Position numbers and translations under genes: made by a program. Of a stretch of 32,000 nt of DNA, positions 14,342-32,000 are shown one piece after another; position 1 is the first letter of the stretch; each line of letters starts with the position of its first letter. A model generated the notes under the pieces. That model had not been told where the DNA came from. It did not search any database and saw nothing but the letters and a program-made list of their open reading frames with translations. Origin of the DNA: Propionibacterium ruminifibrarum (GTDB lineage: Bacteria; Actinomycetota; Actinomycetes; Propionibacteriales; Propionibacteriaceae); contig NZ_OMOH01000010.1 of assembly GCF_900289195.1 (NCBI RefSeq), positions 1 through 32,000 on the forward strand. Direction: 5' to 3'.

Positions 14342-15235
14342 TCAGGACAGCGGGGCCGGGACGAGCTCGACGACGTCCTCGTCCTGGCCGGCGTGGCGGG
14401 GGTCGAGGATGTCGCGCAGGGCGTCGCCCAGCAGATTGAAGACGATGACGGTGACGCTGATCGCCGCGCCGGGGAAGATCATGAGCCACGGCGAGTCGAG
14501 CAGGTAGGCGCGGCCCTCGTTGAGCATGAGGCCCCACTCGGCCTGCGGCGGCTGGGCGCCGAAGCCGAGGAAGGACAGGCCGGCAAGTTCGAGCATCATC
14601 GTGCCGATGTCGGTGGCTGCCGTGATGACCAGTGTCGGAAGGGCGCTCGGCAGCAGGTAGCGGCGCATGAGACGGCCGGGCCGGGTGCCGCTGAGTTCGG
14701 CGGCCGTCACGAAGTCCGAGTGCCGGATCTTGAGCACCAGGCTGCGCGCCAGGCGGGCGTACTTCGTCCAGCTGACGACGGCCAGGGCGATGATCGCGTT
14801 GCGAATGCTCGCCCCGAGCAGACCGGCCACGGCGATGGCCAGGACGATGCCGGGAAAGGAGATCATCATGTCACTGATGCGCATGATGACCGCGTCGACG
14901 AGCCCGCCGAAGTGTCCGGCGATGACACCCAGGAACGAGCCGACGACGGAGATCGTGAGGACGAGGATGATCGCCGAGGTGAGCGAGATGCGGGTGCCGT
15001 AGACGATCCGCGAGGCGATGTCGCGGCCGAGCTTGTCGGTACCGAACCAGTGCTCGGCGCTCGGCGGCTGGAAGGCGTCCGAAAGGTTCGCCGCATAGGG
15101 GTCCATCGGCGCGATCTGCTTGGCGAAGACCGCGACGAGGATGATCACGACGACCAGCGCCACGTAGACGCCGAAGATCCTGCGCCCGCCGATGGCGCGG
15201 CGGGTGTTCCTCCAGATGCTGCGCAGTGCGCTCAT
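14342..15235 (-). CDS. ABC transporter permease (DppC/OppC/NikC type)
   Basis: I trimmed the 675-aa track ORF to the ATG at 15235 (MSALRSIWRNTRR...), which forms an ATGA overlap with the upstream permease stop. It contains FGTDKLGRDIASR and the permease loop region AAELSGTRPGRLMRRYLLPSALP. Confidence 0.9.
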   Translation of the reverse strand: MSALRSIWRNTRRAIGGRRIFGVYVALVVVIILVAVFAKQIAPMDPYAANLSDAFQPPSAEHWFGTDKLGRDIASRIVYGTRISLTSAIILVLTISVVGSFLGVIAGHFGGLVDAVIMRISDMMISFPGIVLAIAVAGLLGASIRNAIIALAVVSWTKYARLARSLVLKIRHSDFVTAAELSGTRPGRLMRRYLLPSALPTLVITAATDIGTMMLELAGLSFLGFGAQPPQAEWGLMLNEGRAYLLDSPWLMIFPGAAISVTVIVFNLLGDALRDILDPRHAGQDEDVVELVPAPLS

Positions 15236-16200
15236 GAGCGGGCTCCTCGTCGTACGCGCGGGTCGAGCCGGGCGTAGGAGATGTCGACCAGCAGGTTGAT
15301 GACCATGTAGATGAGTGCGATCCACAGCACGTAGGTCTGCACCAGCGGGTAGTCGTACGAGGTGACCGCCGAGACAGCCATGTTGCCCAGACCCGGGTAG
15401 GAGAAGACGACCTCGACGACGGCCGTGCCGCCCAGCAGCGAGCCGAGGGACAGGCCGAGCAGGGTGAGCAGGGGGAGCTGCGCGTTCGGCAGGACGTGCC
15501 GCCACAAGATGGTGCGCTCCGACATGCCGCGGGCCCGGGCACCGATGACGTAGTCCTGGTTGAGTTCCTCGAGGACGGCGGTGCGGACCTGGCGGGTGTA
15601 CCTGCCGATCATGGCGAAGGCCAGCGTGACGGCCGGCATGATGAGCTGGTCGAGGCCCTTCCCCGTCGAGACCACCGGCAGCAGCCCGAGCTTGAGGGCG
15701 ACGGCCCAGATGAGCAGCAGACCGAACCAGAAGTTCGGCATTGAGACGCCGAGGAAGCTGAAGCCGCGTGCGAGGTGGTCGATGACGCTGCCCTGGCGCA
15801 CCGCGGCCGCCATGCCCAGGGGGACGGCGACGAGGAGCATGAGGACCAGGGACGCCAGCGCGAGCTTGATGGTCGGCCACAGGCGGGCCAGCATCAGGTC
15901 TGTGACGGGCTTGTTCAGGGAATAGGACGTGCCGAAGTTCCCGTGCAGGCAGTTGCCGAGCCAGGTGACGTACTGGGTGAGGAAGGGCTTGTCGAGGCCG
16001 AGCCGGGCGCGCATCTCCTCGACCATCTCGGGTGTCGGCGTGATGCCCTGGCTGGTGTACATGGCCTGCGCCGGGTCGCCCGGGGCGAGCCAGACGAGCA
16101 CGAAGGTGATGAAGCTGATGCCCACCAGCACGACAAGAATCTGACCCAGCCTCCGGGCCAGCCATCGAGCGTCCACGAGCCGCAACCACCTCACGATCAT
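15232..16200 (-). CDS. ABC transporter permease (DppB/OppB/NikB type)
   Basis: 322 aa. The N-terminus ...LARRLGQILVVLVGISFITFVLVWLAPGDP and the loop ARARGMSERTILWRHVLPNA are typical of this type. The start is uncertain: ATG at 16200, or an in-frame GTG at 16176 preceded by GAGGTGG. Confidence 0.88.
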   Translation of the reverse strand: MIVRWLRLVDARWLARRLGQILVVLVGISFITFVLVWLAPGDPAQAMYTSQGITPTPEMVEEMRARLGLDKPFLTQYVTWLGNCLHGNFGTSYSLNKPVTDLMLARLWPTIKLALASLVLMLLVAVPLGMAAAVRQGSVIDHLARGFSFLGVSMPNFWFGLLLIWAVALKLGLLPVVSTGKGLDQLIMPAVTLAFAMIGRYTRQVRTAVLEELNQDYVIGARARGMSERTILWRHVLPNAQLPLLTLLGLSLGSLLGGTAVVEVVFSYPGLGNMAVSAVTSYDYPLVQTYVLWIALIYMVINLLVDISYARLDPRVRRGARS

Positions 16201-16279
16201 GACGGATGTCGTTCGTCACAACCGGATTCTTGCGACTCTCCGCTCGGGCCCCGTGATCACCAAGTACCGCAGTGACGAG

Positions 16280-16455
16280 GAGGTTCCCAGGCAGGTCTTC
16301 TGACTCGCGTCCCGGGGCGGTTGCCCCGACGGACCCTCTGCCTTCCCGGTTGCCCAGTGGCCGGCTCACGCCGATGAGGGTCCGGGACGCTCACAGCGGC
16401 GGTCCCGTCCGCGATTCGCACGCGGTTCCCTGTTGCTCCGACCAGCCCGACGGGG
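16280..16455 (-). promoter_or_regulatory. Cobalamin (AdoCbl/B12) riboswitch
   Basis: The minus strand contains, in the canonical order, AACAGGGAACCGCGTGCGAATCGCGGACGGGACCGCCGCTGTGAGC, then GAGCCGGCCACTGGGCAACCGGGAAGGC, then the B12 box AGTCAGAAGACCTGCC (16305..16290). It ends about 90 nt upstream of the first permease gene. Confidence 0.85.
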
Positions 16456-16672
16456 TTGATCGGACACCTGGGGATGCTGCGCGCTCAGCACGCGCAGCGC
16501 CCTTGCTTCGCTGGGAGCATAGCAGTACCTAACTGATGCGACGCAATCTCATCTGGCAACTTACGCAGCAAAGGCTCGCCTTCTTGCGTTTCCGTCGGCC
16601 GGTGGGCCGGCACGGCAGCGCCGCGGCCCCGAGAGACCGCGGCGCAGACCGGTCGCGTCGGATGCTGGTTGT

Positions 16673-24532: not shown

Positions 24533-24799
24533 TCACAGGTAACGGTAGACGTCGTCCAGGGCGAGTCCCTTGTCGATCATCATGACCTGCGCCCAGTACA
24601 GGAGCTGGCTGATCTCCTCGGCCAGCTGCTCACGTGACTGGTACTCGGCGGCCATCCAGACCTCGGACGCCTCCTCGACCACCTTCTTGCCGATGGCGTG
24701 GGTGCCCTCGTCCAGCTTGGCGACGGTACCGGAGCCCGCCGGGCGCTGGGCAGCCGTCCGTGTCAGTTCGGCGAACAGCTGATCAAAACTCTTGCTCAC
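24533..24799 (-). CDS. hisE: Phosphoribosyl-ATP pyrophosphatase
   Basis: 88 aa: [46 protein letters not shown].... The GTG start at 24799 is preceded by TAGGCT-GGCGCG, which is leaderless geometry. Confidence 0.9.
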
Positions 24800-24912
24800 C
24801 GCGCCAGCCTAGCCCAGCCCCAGACGAGGCCCGGACGAGGCCGCTGTGCGGCGGCGACGGGATTTTGTCGGCCGACGCACCTACTATCGATATGCATTGA
24901 CAGGAGGTGTTC

Positions 24913-30001: not shown

Positions 30002-30088
30002 GTCCGGGTGGCGGAATTGGTAGACGCGCTAGCTTGAGGTGCTAGTGGCCGCTTTTAGGCCATGGAGGTTCAAGTCCTCTCTCGGACA
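30002..30088 (+). tRNA. tRNA-Leu (anticodon GAG), class II with long variable arm; CCA not encoded
   Basis: The acceptor stem is GTCCGGG/CTCGGAC, including one G-T pair. The anticodon stem is CTAGC/GCTAG with loop TTGAGGT. The variable arm is GGCC-gctttta-GGCC. The T arm is GGAGG-TTCAAGT-CCTCT. The discriminator is A. Confidence 0.93.
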
Positions 30089-30098
30089 CTCGCTGGGA

Positions 30099-30130
30099 CC
30101 CCTAGTCAGACCCAATCGACTAGGGGTTTT
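30099..30130 (+). terminator. Intrinsic terminator of tRNA-Leu
   Basis: The sequence is CCCCTAGTC-(10-nt loop)-GACTAGGGG followed by TTTT. Confidence 0.7.
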
Positions 30131-30960
30131 ACTGTTCTCGGTGTACTGCCGGACCATGTCGAATCGAGCCACATCGCGCCATGTTCGACGCATGGTCGGT
30201 GCACGCCGCAGCCCACAGCCCGGCCTCACGAGTCCACACCGATCCAGACCTGAGTCACCCACACCACACCGGAGCGACAGAACCGATCATGCGGGACACC
30301 CCGGAGCGTCGCGATCACGTCGCCGGCGGACGCCCCGGCTTGCGGGTGATCCGGTCCGTCATCGTGTCGATGCCATCCATCGGGAGGATCCGGTCGAGCC
30401 GTGCCTTCACTCGCTCACGCCACTACGCCGGGGCATCATGCTGCCCTCCCTCTCCACTCGGTCCTCCGCCGAGCAGCCCTGCCAGCCCAGGACACATGCT
30501 CGTCGCCGTCCCCGATCTGCGACTGCAGTGGCGCATGCTCTCTCCCGAGAACCGCCGCCGGCCGATCCGGCCGATGCGACCTTGGCACCAACGATGCGCC
30601 GCCGGCCGCGCTGCCAGGGACACCCGCAGCCAGGGCACACCAGCCGGCCGTCACGGACCTCACCGAACACCCGCCCCGTGACGCCTTCCCGCGCCAGACC
30701 CCGGCAAAGCTGTGAAGGTACTCACAGCATTCCCCTACTGGATCACCCTGTCCCCAAGGCTGCTCACAGAAAATTTATCACGAATAATTTCGGCCTAACC
30801 CCCTTGACGCCGAATATTTTTTTGATCCAATTGGGGAACAACCCTGATTCTCGAGAGATTTACCCTTATTGAACCCTAGGACTTGCAGGATCGACTGGTT
30901 TTCACTCAGAGGATCGTCTACACTGTTTTCTGTGGTTTTCGTTAGAAAGCCGCAACCTGA

Positions 30961-31174
30961 AGCTGTGAACGGTGCTTGGCATTGTGCCACCCACCCCCAT
31001 ATCCGCCGCGCATGGGTCTGAGAGGAACCGGCGCCCGGCAGATCGTCGCAGTGCTGGTCGGTGACACCCCCGCCGTCAGCACCACCCCTCGGCGAGAGGT
31101 CGGGATCCTCCAGAGGCCCACCCCCAGCGGCGGATTGGCCAGGCCCACCCCCATGCCGAGCACTGTTCACAGCT
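30961..31174 (+). ncRNA. Candidate structured RNA: 214-nt rod-like inverted-repeat element with C-rich internal loops (alternative interpretation: MITE)
   Basis: A 22-bp closing stem pairs 30961-30982 with 31153-31174 (20 Watson-Crick pairs plus 2 G-U, valid only on the plus strand). Next comes an 18 x 17-nt internal loop, then a 9-bp stem pairing 31001-31009 with 31127-31135, then further helices. The motif CCCACCCCCA occurs three times. Confidence 0.35.
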
Positions 31175-31317
31175 GGGCCTCCCCGCGCACCCCCAGGCGG
31201 GTTGAGGACGTCCGGCCCGGGTCGCGCACATGGTGCGGGCCCGGGCCGACTGGCTCCAGCGGCTAGGCTGGGACGGCGCCCGGCCAGCTCCATGGCACCC
31301 CGATCGCAAAGGAATCC

Positions 31318-32000
31318 ATGAACCTTCTTCACGCAATCCTTCTCGGCATCGTCGAGGGCATCACCGAGTTCCTGCCCGTATCCAGCACCGGTCACCTTCG
31401 CATCGTGGAGAAGCTGCTCGGCTATGACATCCAAGGTGTCGGCATCACCGCCTTCACCGCCATCATCCAGGTCGGTGCGATCCTCGCGGCGATCATCTAC
31501 TTCTGGAAGGACATCGTCCGCATCATCGCCGCGTGGTTCCGTGGTCTCACCCACAAGGAGAGTCGCGAGGATCCCGATTACACGCTCGGCTGGGGCATCA
31601 TCATCGGCTCCATCCCCGTCGCCGTCGTCGGGCTGCTGTTCAAGGACTTCATCGAGGGGGCCCTGAGCTCGCTGTGGGTCATCGCGGCGGCTCTGCTGCT
31701 GTGGAGCATCGCCATGGCCGCGGCCGACCGGCGCAAGGACCTGACCCGCGAGATGAAGGACGTCGGCATCAAGGATGCTCTCGTCATCGGCCTGTTCCAG
31801 GCCCTCGCACCCCTGTTCCCCGGCATCTCCCGTTCGGGGGCGACGATCTCCGCGGGCCTCTTCCGCGGATACACCCGCGAGACGGCCACCCGCCTGTCGT
31901 TCTACATGGGCATCCCGGCTCTCGTGGCCGCCGGCATCTACGAAGCCATCACCGCGGCCTCCGACATCACGACGGCCAGCCCAGGCGGCACGGCCATCGG
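31318..32000 (+). CDS. uppP: Undecaprenyl-diphosphate phosphatase (UppP/BacA), 5' partial; continues beyond the right edge
   Basis: I translated this by hand from the ATG at 31318, which is preceded by AAAGGAA. The product is MNLLHAILLGIVEGITEFLPVSSTGHLRIVEKLLGY...PGISRSGATISAGL.... It is absent from the ORF track because there is no stop codon inside the window. Confidence 0.9.
   Translation, partial: MNLLHAILLGIVEGITEFLPVSSTGHLRIVEKLLGYDIQGVGITAFTAIIQVGAILAAIIYFWKDIVRIIAAWFRGLTHKESREDPDYTLGWGIIIGSIPVAVVGLLFKDFIEGALSSLWVIAAALLLWSIAMAAADRRKDLTREMKDVGIKDALVIGLFQALAPLFPGISRSGATISAGLFRGYTRETATRLSFYMGIPALVAAGIYEAITAASDITTASPGGTAI

What the first reader, a model, noticed from the sequence alone, without database searches (positions are those of the whole stretch)
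30961..31174. 214-nt rod-like inverted-repeat element with C-rich bubbles upstream of uppP: candidate novel structured RNA
Seen in the sequence:
- The arms AGCTGTGAACGGTGCTTGGCAT (30961-30982) and ATGCCGAGCACTGTTCACAGCT (31153-31174) form 22 consecutive pairs.
- The only two DNA-level mismatches between the arms become G-U wobbles on the plus-strand transcript. On the minus strand they would be C-A mismatches. That argues for selection on a plus-strand RNA fold rather than a simple DNA palindrome.
- Inside the stem is a large, nearly symmetric internal loop: TGTGCCACCCACCCCCAT on one side and TGGCCAGGCCCACCCCC on the other.
- Next comes a perfect 9-bp helix (ATCCGCCGC/GCGGCGGAT), then shorter helices TGGG/CCCA, TCTG/CAGA and GAGGA/TCCTC, and a branched tip.
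- The decamer CCCACCCCCA occurs three times (30990, 31117, 31144). AGGCCCACCCCCA is a perfect 13-nt direct repeat (31114 and 31141).
- The element follows an AT-rich, promoter-like island. A GC hairpin (31213-31248) and then uppP follow it on the same strand.

Inference: a closing stem plus a big bubble plus an internal stem recalls 6S-type RNAs. Unpaired C-runs recall the C-rich-loop sRNAs of actinobacteria (6C type). It could also be a cis-acting leader of uppP, or a MITE.
Basis: partly seen in the sequence, partly recalled or inferred. Interest (0 to 1): 0.7.

Follow-up and report, generated by a model that had tools for sequence, protein, structure and literature searches.

The report
New C-rich rod-shaped small RNA gene
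The inverted repeat upstream of uppP is the core of a previously undescribed, roughly 320-nt structured small RNA gene found only in a few close Propionibacterium relatives. Its best-conserved parts are unpaired runs of cytosines, which probably bind G-rich partners.

Summary
Window 30961-31174 folds into an unbranched 214-nt rod: + strand RNA -114.9 kcal/mol, z = -7.4; - strand z = -3.2.

The rod is the core of a larger unit at about 30931-31250. That unit has a conserved -10-like TACACT, a 10-bp 5' hairpin, the rod, a small 3' hairpin, and a GC hairpin without a U tail.

Homologues exist at the same site (tRNA-Leu, then element, then uppP) in P. australiense, one MAG and one metagenome scaffold. 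They keep 87% of pair cells, against 34-41% when partners are slid. Nine pairs changed on both sides. G-U pairs fit only the + strand.

The element occurs once per genome and is absent from that interval in P. freudenreichii and another Propionibacterium. It is therefore not a MITE. It matches no Rfam family (6S, 6C and Ms1 included) and shows no similarity to M. smegmatis Ms1. uppP keeps its own -10 box in species without the element, so a uppP leader is unlikely.

Four unpaired C-runs (consensus CACCCCC) are 85-100% invariant, against 18% for neutral spacer.

Best reading: a lineage-restricted trans-acting sRNA that displays several C-rich seeds for G-rich targets. Expression and partners are untested.

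The parts
30708..30729 (.). Small palindrome AGCTGTGA-AGGTAC-TCACAGCA. It contains a perfect CRP/GlxR-type TGTGA-N6-TCACA and shares its octamer with the base of the rod. It may be a regulator site. Whether it belongs to the RNA unit is uncertain.
   Evidence: (D5, I4). Conserved about 220 nt upstream of the RNA start in all four species, but with an N5 spacer in L028. Model R1 scores its counterparts in L028 and L019 as a rod with the interior deleted.
30857..30877 (+). Conserved upstream box GATTTACCCTTATTGAACCCT, a candidate regulator or UP-type site.
   Evidence: Four-way identity 0.57, against 0.18 for the spacer just upstream.
30919..30924 (+). Candidate -10 hexamer TACACT. The inferred transcription start is about 30931-30932.
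   Evidence: TACACT in the window, P. australiense and L028, and TAAGGT in L001. All four fit TANNNT, the -10 consensus reported for P. acnes (PMC3848588, supplement legend). Position relative to the 5' hairpin is conserved. Not found by the sigma-70 consensus scan. Inferred.
30931..30954 (+). 5'-terminal hairpin UGUGGUUUUC-GUUA-GAAAGCCGCA (10 bp).
   Evidence: All 40 pair cells are paired in four species. Eight cells are G-U and would be A-C mismatches on the - strand. Four-way identity 0.79.
30961..30982 (+). 5' arm of the 22-bp closing stem (H1).
   Evidence: (helix 1: 96.6% of cells paired, 2 pairs changed on both sides).
30983..31000 (+). 5' side of the internal loop, carrying CCCACCCCC (C-motif a).
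   Evidence: Motif 8/9 invariant in four species. Unpaired probability 0.56-0.73 against a mean of 0.29.
31001..31009 (+). 5' strand of helix H2 (AUCCGCCGC).
   Evidence: Three of nine pairs changed on both sides across species. The helix is extended to 11 bp in L001 and L028.
31010..31126 (+). Inner rod (helices H3-H7). It carries the apical loop CACCCCC (31065-31071, motif b), the interior-loop CCCC of CCCCUCGG (31085-31092, motif c) and the bulge CCCACCCCCAGCG (31117-31129, motif d).
   Evidence: helices 3-7: 80-92% of cells paired, 6 pairs changed on both sides. Motifs b and c are 100% invariant and motif d is 85% invariant, while the inner rod overall is 0.46. The motifs are predicted unpaired.
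31127..31135 (+). 3' strand of helix H2 (GCGGCGGAU).
31136..31152 (+). 3' side of the internal loop. With the first base of the 3' arm it carries the same 11-mer CCCACCCCCAT (31144-31154) as the 5' side (C-motif e).
   Evidence: D4. C-rich in all four species but only 4/9 invariant. Unpaired probability 0.72-0.86 where scored (window, P. australiense, L001; no C-run scored in L028).
31153..31174 (+). 3' arm of the closing stem (H1).
31178..31207 (+). Small 3' hairpin with a C-rich loop GCACCCCCAG (C-motif f).
   Evidence: 2 pairs changed on both sides. The loop is C-rich in three species and lost in L028.
31210..31250 (+). GC-rich hairpin without a U tail. It is the presumed 3' end of the RNA, acting as a terminator or a protective hairpin.
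   Evidence: 15 pairs, 2 changed on both sides. No U tract in any species. Not called by the terminator scan.
31264..31269 (+). TAGGCT, the candidate -10 of uppP's own promoter. It is not part of the RNA and marks the boundary of the unit. The uppP ATG is at 31318.
   Evidence: CTAG(G/C)CT lies about 50 nt upstream of the uppP ATG in all Propionibacterium loci, including L024 and P. freudenreichii L021, which lack the element.

Best explanation
The inverted repeat is the core of an independently transcribed, plus-strand, non-coding RNA gene of about 320 nt (about 30931-31250).

Transcription is inferred to start about 7 nt after a conserved TANNNT box. The RNA opens with a protective 10-bp 5' hairpin. 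It continues as a 214-nt unbranched rod: a 22-bp closing stem, a symmetric C-rich internal loop, a 9-11-bp GC helix, and further helices up to a C-rich apical loop. It ends with a small hairpin and a GC hairpin.

The rod acts as a rigid scaffold that holds five to six short cytosine runs (consensus CACCCCC) single-stranded. These runs are the working parts. They base-pair with G-rich single-stranded stretches, typically ribosome-binding regions, of target mRNAs. High-GC Gram-positive bacteria lack Hfq, and in them G-C-rich loop contacts suffice without a chaperone, as was shown for 6C RNA. Having several seeds on one RNA would allow several targets, or avid binding of one.

The gene is an accessory element. 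It lies in an island between tRNA-Leu(GAG) and uppP that exists only in the P. australiense-like branch of Propionibacterium.

Shown here: the structure, the strand, conservation, single-copy status, lack of coding potential, and conservation and accessibility of the C-runs.
Inferred: the transcript ends, independence from uppP, and base-pairing with G-rich targets.
For: Structure:
- z = -7.4 for the rod and -6.4 to -9.0 for the full unit in four species.
- 87.4% of pair cells are paired, against 34-41% when partners are slid.
- Nine pairs changed on both sides, against 2-5 slid. Covariation score 0.212 against <=0.099 slid. Only 4 of 500 shuffles reach the observed score.
- Curated H2 has 3 of 9 pairs changed on both sides, and H1 has 2 of 22.

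Strand:
- G-U cells outnumber A-C cells 9 to 1 in H1 and 8 to 0 in the 5' hairpin.
- RNA z-score is -7.4 on the + strand and -3.2 on the - strand.

Not coding:
- There is no GC3 signal.
- Overlapping ORFs have no Pfam hit.
- Indels of 1-2 nt separate the species.

Single copy and orthologous position.

Own promoter and 3' hairpin are conserved, and uppP keeps its own -10 box even where the element is absent.

C-runs:
- Four-way identity is 0.85-1.0 for motifs a-d. The comparison values are 0.46 for the inner rod, 0.55 for uppP third codon positions and 0.18 for neutral spacer.
- Unpaired probability is 0.5-1.0 against a mean of 0.29 in all four homologues.
- Four of the seven near-matches to the decamer in 32 kb lie inside the element.

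Precedent: the C-rich loops of 6C bind G-rich ribosome-binding sites without a chaperone, and 9 of 25 verified M. tuberculosis sRNAs carry unpaired C-stretches (PMC6486639).
Against: - No expression data exist. The promoter has no recognisable -35, and consensus scans found neither a promoter nor a terminator.
- No target has been identified, and only 32 kb of this genome is available.
- A 320-nt RNA of about -180 kcal/mol with a perfect 22-bp stem is atypical for base-pairing sRNAs. It looks more like a scaffold, sponge or RNA-polymerase-binding RNA.
- Motifs e and f are less conserved, and f is lost in L028.
- Only four related sequences are available, so the covariation statistics are modest and are computed on a model-fitted alignment.
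- The GC hairpin lacks a U tail, so read-through into uppP is possible.
Confidence: 0.42

Rival explanations
1. It is an RNA-polymerase-binding RNA of the 6S / Ms1 / CoRP kind. The rod with its internal bubble would mimic open promoter DNA and sequester RNA polymerase holoenzyme or core, for example in stationary phase.
For: - The architecture resembles Ms1 as described in PMC9130861: a 5' hairpin, a long rod with a bubble and a 3' hairpin, about 300 nt in total.
- No 6S or Ms1 is known for Propionibacterium or Cutibacterium. Ms1 was predicted in the family only for Auraticoccus, Friedmanniella and Microlunatus.
- PMC11077062 proposes that each species has one abundant, possibly unrecognised, polymerase-binding RNA.
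- Tree-edit distance to the Ms1 fold is 176-204, below that of most random genomic 322-mers (mean 249, 5th percentile 210).
Against: - No Rfam hit to 6S or any other family at E<=10.
- No sequence similarity to M. smegmatis Ms1.
- The distance of 176-204 exceeds the published Ms1-likeness cut-off of 135.
- Ms1 synteny (HAD-IB hydrolase flank) is absent.
- The bubble sits near the base of the rod rather than its centre. The closing stem is a perfect 22-bp duplex without the regular bulges typical of 6S (own knowledge).
- The element is missing from the same interval in P. freudenreichii and another Propionibacterium. That is odd for a housekeeping regulator.
Confidence: 0.12
2. It is a decoy or sponge. 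The repeated unpaired C-runs on a rigid scaffold would titrate a C-binding protein (for example Rho or a KH-domain protein) or a G-rich small RNA. This would be analogous to CsrB/RsmZ with its GGA motifs.
For: - Five to six copies of one short motif sit in unpaired positions of a large stable RNA.
- The identical 11-mer on both sides of the internal loop suggests a dimeric partner (D4).
- The size and stability are typical of sponge RNAs (own knowledge).
Against: - No candidate protein partner is encoded nearby.
- No precedent for a C-motif protein sponge in Actinobacteria was found in the papers read.
- Rho utilisation sites are long unstructured C-rich tracts rather than 5-9-nt loops (own knowledge).
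Confidence: 0.15
3. It is a cis-acting 5' leader of uppP. Transcription from the upstream promoter would read through the tail-less GC hairpin, and the rod would control uppP mRNA stability, processing (for example RNase III cutting of the 22-bp stem) or termination.
For: - The element has the same orientation as uppP and lies immediately upstream of it in all four species.
- The GC hairpin has no U tract.
- A perfect 22-bp duplex is an RNase III-type substrate (own knowledge).
Against: - uppP has a conserved -10-like CTAG(G/C)CT box about 50 nt upstream of its ATG, both in species with the element and in species without it.
- The spacer between hairpin and uppP varies from 67 to about 125 nt and is poorly conserved.
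- Nothing in the fold sequesters the uppP ribosome-binding site.
- uppP in other Propionibacteriaceae has unrelated upstream regions.
Confidence: 0.1
4. It is a DNA-level element with no RNA function: a MITE, a decaying remnant of a mobile element integrated at tRNA-Leu, a cruciform, or a single-strand-origin-type hairpin.
For: - It lies in a variable island directly downstream of a tRNA gene. That tRNA carries an integrase in one relative and a transposase nearby in P. freudenreichii.
- Its neighbourhood is AT-rich.
- It has a long terminal inverted repeat.
- The + strand also folds well with DNA parameters (z = -6.6).
Against: - There is one copy per genome in the two Propionibacterium genomes hit among 185,579 scanned. 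All other hits are single-arm chance matches.
- There are no flanking direct repeats.
- There is no match in phage or plasmid collections.
- Compensatory substitutions and high conservation relative to neighbouring spacer show ongoing selection on the fold.
Confidence: 0.04

Closest known systems
6C RNA (Rfam RF01066; B11 / ncRv13660c of M. tuberculosis, scr3558 of S. coelicolor)
   Same: It is an actinobacterial non-coding RNA whose conserved, unpaired cytosine runs in loops are the functional sites. These pair with G-rich ribosome-binding regions without Hfq or ProQ (PMC6486639). The 3' hairpin here (CCCGC-GCACCCCCAG-GCGGG) looks like a single 6C-type stem-loop.
   Different: [quoted passage not shown] It is restricted to four close lineages. 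It gives no 6C hit even at E<=10.
Ms1 RNA (MTS2823; binds RNA polymerase core)
   Same: It is actinobacterial, about 300 nt, and has a 5' hairpin, a long hairpin with an internal bubble, and a 3' hairpin (PMC4191392, PMC9130861).
   Different: There is no sequence similarity and the synteny differs. Structural distance is above the published cut-off. The bubble is symmetric, C-rich and near the base of the rod, whereas the M. smegmatis Ms1 bubble is asymmetric and central. Distribution within the genus is patchy.
6S RNA (Rfam RF00013)
   Same: It has a closing stem, a large internal loop and an internal stem, and the rod is about 200 nt.
   Different: There is no covariance-model match. The closing stem is a perfect 22-bp duplex. 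The loop has no -10-like conserved sequence, and its sides are identical C-rich 11-mers.
Staphylococcus aureus RNAIII and Rsa RNAs with UCCC motifs (own knowledge)
   Same: It is a long, highly structured regulatory RNA that exposes several C-rich loops, which pair with Shine-Dalgarno regions of several mRNAs.
   Different: The phylum is unrelated and there is no homology. RNAIII also encodes a peptide, whereas no conserved ORF is present here.
MITEs and REP/ERIC-type palindromic repeats
   Same: It is an imperfect palindrome of about 200 bp with long terminal inverted repeats in an intergenic region.
   Different: It is single-copy with no target-site duplication. It sits at an orthologous position in four species and shows compensatory, strand-specific substitutions.

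Membership tests
6S RNA (RF00013) | Match to the family covariance model (sequence plus structure) | tested here: not met
   cmscan reported no 6S hit at E<=10 on 30500-31400 or at E<=5 on the three homologous loci. No hit at gathering score on the whole window.
6S RNA (RF00013) | Closing stem, large central bubble and internal stem in a roughly 180-200-nt RNA | tested here: inconclusive
   The rod has a closing stem, an 18/17-nt loop and an inner stem. However, the loop is near the base, is partly closable, and the stem lacks bulges.
6S RNA (RF00013) | Binds sigma-A/sigma-70 holoenzyme and templates product RNA | not testable with these tools
   Requires RIP-seq, gel shift or product-RNA sequencing.
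6C RNA (RF01066) | Match to the family covariance model | tested here: not met
   No hit at E<=10 or E<=5.
6C RNA (RF01066) | Conserved C-rich loops of stem-loops | tested here: met
   The apical loop CACCCCC is invariant. The 3' hairpin loop is C-rich in three of four species. Other C-runs lie in internal loops. This is a resemblance in mode of action only, not homology.
Ms1 RNA | Sequence similarity to known Ms1 (the BLAST criterion of PMC4191392) | tested here: not met
   nhmmer with --max found no hit. The best blastn match is 11 nt at E = 1.7 against M. smegmatis Ms1. Only the M. smegmatis sequence was available.
Ms1 RNA | Conserved synteny: HAD-IB hydrolase / phosphoserine phosphatase on one flank and an oxidoreductase or similar on the other (PMC9130861) | tested here: not met
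   The flanks are tRNA-Leu, DUF5703 and an aldo/keto reductase on one side and uppP on the other. No HAD hydrolase is called in the loci.
Ms1 RNA | Structural similarity to the M. smegmatis Ms1 fold (RNAdistance cut-off 135 in PMC9130861) | tested here: not met
   Tree-edit distances are 176-204. Random genomic 322-mers give 249 +/- 26. The test is approximate: it compares MFE with MFE, not the authors' curated template or suboptimal folds.
Ms1 RNA | Binds RNA polymerase core and is abundant in stationary phase | not testable with these tools
   Requires RIP-seq, glycerol gradients or Northern blots.
MITE / dispersed palindromic repeat | Many dispersed near-identical copies per genome | tested here: not met
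   There is one copy in the 32-kb window. The arm pattern hit one locus in each of two Propionibacterium genomes among 185,579 species genomes. The other hits are single-arm matches without the element.
MITE / dispersed palindromic repeat | Target-site duplications flanking terminal inverted repeats | tested here: not met
   The flanks are CCTGA|...|GGGCC in the window and CTTGA|...|GAAGA in L001. No direct repeat is present.
Riboswitch or cis-leader of uppP | Conserved coupling between the structured element and the expression signals of the downstream gene | tested here: not met
   The spacer is variable, 67 to about 125 nt. uppP has its own conserved -10-like box, which is also present where the element is absent. 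uppP elsewhere in the family has unrelated upstream regions.

The most novel reading that the evidence does not exclude
This RNA is the missing RNA-polymerase-associated RNA of the P. australiense group. It would be a fourth class beside 6S, Ms1 and CoRP, with a symmetric C-rich bubble on a rigid rod serving as the polymerase-binding module. That would show that such RNAs can be gained as small islands next to tRNA genes and can differ even within a genus.
Probability: 0.12. Interest if true: 0.75.

Novelty: new variant of a known kind. Interest (0 to 1): 0.45.

Why it matters
Regulatory RNAs of propionibacteria are almost unexplored, and Actinobacteria lack Hfq and CsrA. This locus offers a compact, well-supported example of a large scaffold RNA that displays several identical C-rich sites. 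That extends the C-rich-loop / G-rich-target principle, shown so far for the short 6C RNA, to a multivalent architecture.

The element is present in P. australiense and absent from P. freudenreichii at the same site. It can therefore be tested by simple gain and loss experiments.

It is also a candidate for the still unidentified RNA-polymerase-binding RNA of this group. Its narrow distribution limits its general importance.

Tried and rejected
- Rfam at gathering score and at permissive E-values, on the window and on the homologues: only tRNA-Leu and a distant cobalamin riboswitch.
- blastn against plasmid and phage collections: no match.
- Viral-contig scan with the arm pattern: one chance single-arm hit without the element.
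- Metagenome scan with the invariant 5'-hairpin pattern: two chance hits in low-GC DNA.
- uppP-anchored loci from Acidipropionibacterium and Cutibacterium: uppP sits in a different context and there is no element.
- MshC-anchored loci from P. freudenreichii and two other Propionibacterium lineages: synteny is kept, but the element is absent from the tRNA-Leu to uppP interval where that interval is held (L020/L021, L024/L025). The L022/L023 contigs end before uppP.
- Exact-protein look-up with the aldo/keto reductase: not on record. Locus L029 ends at the tRNA.
- Coding hypothesis: no Pfam hits for the three ORFs over the element, and frame-breaking indels between species.
- Ms1 comparison by sequence and by tree-edit distance: negative.
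- RNAalifold on the MAFFT alignment of four sequences mispaired H2, because a 2-nt insertion shifts the register in L001 and L028. The covariance-model alignment has the same weakness. H2 was therefore re-read by hand.
- A possible kissing contact between the apical loop CCCGCC and GGCGGG of the 3' hairpin was considered. It was dropped because L028 does not keep it.
- A search for G-rich complements in the 32-kb window gave only three one-mismatch sites, too few to test.
Full report

- Window 30961-30982 and 31153-31174 form 22 consecutive pairs. The only two non-Watson-Crick positions are G-U on the + strand.
- The 214 nt fold as + strand RNA into a single unbranched rod of -114.9 kcal/mol. 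The z-score is -7.36, and 0 of 200 dinucleotide shuffles fold as well. The - strand gives z = -3.15.
- The 18/17-nt internal loop and the 9-bp helix ATCCGCCGC/GCGGCGGAT are present.
- The three exact copies of CCCACCCCCA and the 13-nt repeat are all present.
- A fourth, one-mismatch copy of the decamer sits in a downstream hairpin loop. Only three one-mismatch matches occur in the remaining ~31.8 kb.
- The 'branched tip' is not supported by the RNA fold.
- Consensus scans find neither a sigma-70 promoter nor a U-tailed terminator.

**Context.**

- The window comes from a Propionibacterium. The best UppP hit is 90% identical ('uncultured Propionibacterium sp.'), and the MshC sequence has an identical entry in public assemblies.
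- The gene order is ftsH, mshC, an aldo/keto reductase, DUF5703 and tRNA-Leu(GAG) at 30002-30089, then about 1.2 kb without coding signal, then uppP with its ATG at 31318.
- The tRNA has its own terminator at 30098-30131 (I7).
- ORFs overlapping the element have no GC3 signal and no Pfam match. Indels of 1-2 nt between species break their frames.

**Homologues.** The element was found at the same position (tRNA-Leu, then element, then uppP, same strand) in three other lineages:

- a MAG, loci L001/L002/L016;
- Propionibacterium australiense NML98A072, locus L019;
- a metagenome scaffold, locus L028.

uppP third codon positions differ at 25-32% of sites between these lineages, so they are well separated.

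The element is absent from several related contexts:

- In Propionibacterium sp. L024/L025, uppP follows tRNA-Leu after only 225 nt.
- In P. freudenreichii L020/L021, the tRNA-Leu to uppP interval holds no match.
- Upstream of uppP in Acidipropionibacterium and Cutibacterium, uppP lies in a different neighbourhood altogether.

The element is therefore an accessory feature of one branch of the genus. It sits in a variable island next to a tRNA gene that carries an integrase in one relative.

**Not a repeat family.** A scan of one genome from each of 185,579 species used a pattern that matches both arms. It found only the MAG (both arms, one locus) and P. australiense (one locus). Eight single-arm hits in Bradyrhizobium-like genomes and one in a viral contig contain no element. 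There is no second copy in the window, no flanking direct repeat, and no match in plasmid or phage collections.

**The unit is larger than the finding.** Alignment of the four loci and folding reveal these parts:

- a conserved box at 30857-30877;
- a -10-like hexamer at 30919-30924: TACACT in three species and TAAGGT in the fourth, all fitting the TANNNT consensus reported for P. acnes in PMC3848588;
- a 10-bp hairpin at 30931-30954, directly at the inferred start;
- the rod at 30961-31174;
- a small hairpin at 31178-31207;
- a GC hairpin at 31210-31250 with no U tail in any species.

The full unit of about 320 nt has z-scores of -6.4, -8.3, -8.3 and -9.0 in the four species.

**Evidence for a selected + strand RNA fold.** A covariance model was used to align the four rods.

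| Measure | Observed | Control |
|---|---|---|
| Pair cells forming standard pairs | 87.4% | 34-41% with 3' partners slid 1-3 columns |
| Pairs changed on both sides | 9 | 2-5 slid |
| Covariation score | 0.212 | <=0.099 slid |
| Shuffles reaching the observed score | 4 of 500 | |

- The alignment is fitted to the model and only four sequences exist, so this is solid but not overwhelming.
- Hand reading of unambiguous helices strengthens it. In H2, ATCCGCCGC/GCGGCGGAT becomes AUCUGUCGC/GCGACAGAC, AUCUGUCGC/GCGAUGGAU and GUCCGUCGC/GCGGCGGGC, so three of nine pairs changed on both sides. H1 has C-G to U-A at pair 10 and A-U / G-C / G-U at pair 21.
- Strand: H1 has nine G-U cells against one A-C cell. 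The 5' hairpin has eight G-U cells and no mismatch. All of these would be mismatches in a - strand transcript.

**What is most conserved.** Four-way identity by region:

| Region | Four-way identity |
|---|---|
| Spacer upstream of the promoter region | 0.18 |
| uppP third codon positions | 0.55 |
| Inner rod overall | 0.46 |
| 5' hairpin | 0.79 |
| H1 arms | 0.77-0.82 |
| CCCACCCCC (5' side of the loop) | 0.89 |
| CACCCCC (apical loop) | 1.0 |
| CCCCUCGG (its C-run in an interior loop) | 1.0 |
| CCCACCCCCAGCG (bulge) | 0.85 |

The C-runs are predicted unpaired in all four species, with probability 0.5-1.0 against a mean of 0.29. The two sides of the internal loop carry the identical 11-mer CCCACCCCCAT. 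Conserved, accessible, repeated C-motifs on a variable-sequence but conserved-structure scaffold point to the C-runs as the functional sites.

**Independence from uppP.** A CTAG(G/C)CT box lies about 50 nt upstream of the uppP ATG in every Propionibacterium locus, including those without the element. The spacer between the GC hairpin and uppP varies from 67 to about 125 nt and is poorly conserved. Nothing in the fold touches the uppP ribosome-binding site. I infer a separate transcription unit. Read-through cannot be excluded, because the hairpin has no U tail.

**Comparison with known RNAs.**

- No Rfam family matches the window region at E<=10 or the homologues at E<=5. Membership of 6S and 6C is therefore not supported.
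- The unit resembles Ms1 in outline: a 5' hairpin, a long rod with a bubble and a 3' hairpin, about 300 nt (PMC4191392, PMC9130861).
- It shows no similarity to the M. smegmatis Ms1 sequence, taken from that paper's supplement.
- It lacks the HAD-IB hydrolase synteny.
- Its tree-edit distance of 176-204 to the Ms1 fold is better than that of most random segments (249 +/- 26) but above the published cut-off of 135.
- Functionally, the closest precedent is 6C RNA. Its C-rich loops bind G-rich ribosome-binding sites without a chaperone, and unpaired C-stretches are reported in 9 of 25 verified M. tuberculosis sRNAs (PMC6486639).

**Conclusion.** With high confidence (about 0.85) this is a real, selected, + strand structured RNA gene that is new to the databases searched.

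The mechanism is inferred. I favour a multivalent C-rich-seed regulatory RNA acting on G-rich targets (about 0.4). The rivals are a C-motif sponge (0.15), an RNA-polymerase-binding RNA (0.12), a uppP leader (0.10) and a DNA-level or mobile remnant (0.04).

**Unexplained.**

- The octamer AGCTGTGA/TCACAGCT is shared by the rod base and a small palindrome 250 nt upstream. That palindrome is also a perfect CRP-type site in three species.
- The two sides of the internal loop carry identical C-rich sequences.
- The perfect 22-bp stem suggests RNase III processing.

**Limits.** Only four homologues are available. There are no expression data. Only 32 kb of this genome is available, and distribution was tested by exact patterns and synteny only.

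Noticed in passing
window 30711-30726 (palindrome 30708-30729): A perfect CRP/GlxR-type site TGTGA-N6-TCACA lies about 220 nt upstream of the RNA start. It is conserved in P. australiense and L001, but the spacer is N5 in L028. Its outer octamers AGCTGTGA/TCACAGCT are the same as those at the base of the rod, and model R1 scores its counterparts in L028 and L019 as an 'empty rod'.
   Followed up: partly
window 30135-30700: About 570 nt of GC-rich sequence lies between the tRNA-Leu terminator and the palindrome, with no coding signal and no Pfam hit. It is absent from L001 and L028, where the tRNA is followed by the palindrome after about 60-80 nt. It may be a remnant of an insertion at the tRNA.
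   Followed up: partly
window 30098-30131: A hairpin ACCCCTAGTC...GACTAGGGGT followed by TTTT lies directly after tRNA-Leu(GAG) (30002-30089). It is probably the tRNA's own terminator, although the terminator scan did not call it.
   Followed up: no
window 16273-16487 (-): A cobalamin riboswitch (RF00174, 72.8 bits) lies upstream, on the minus strand, of the gene at 15232-16200.
   Followed up: no
L022 399-1598; L020 1394-2647: A phage-type integrase sits beside the same tRNA-Leu in one Propionibacterium MAG. A Transposase_mut gene lies between tRNA-Leu and uppP in one P. freudenreichii strain. The tRNA-Leu to uppP interval is therefore a hot spot for insertions in the genus.
   Followed up: no
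L003-L009 compared with window 31318-32000: uppP follows tRNA-Leu only in the genus Propionibacterium. In Acidipropionibacterium and Cutibacterium it lies downstream of rpsR-rplI, with ferritin or other small genes in between in some loci. The gene has therefore moved within the family.
   Followed up: partly
window 31264-31269 and the equivalent sites in L001, L019, L021, L024, L028: A CTAG(G/C)CT box lies about 50 nt upstream of the uppP start in all Propionibacterium loci. It is the likely -10 of uppP's own promoter.
   Followed up: partly
window 24813-24822 (-): The G-rich sequence TGGGGCTGGG lies 14-23 nt upstream of the start of the PRA-PH (hisE-like) ORF at 24533-24799. It is complementary, with one mismatch, to the CCCACCCCCA motif. 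This is only an anecdotal candidate target.
   Followed up: no
L010-L015, L017, L018: The 22-nt arm pattern matches once in each of eight stretches from seven Bradyrhizobium-like alphaproteobacterial genomes, more than the roughly four chance hits expected. No second arm and no element is present. It is probably a conserved sequence shared by those relatives.
   Followed up: partly
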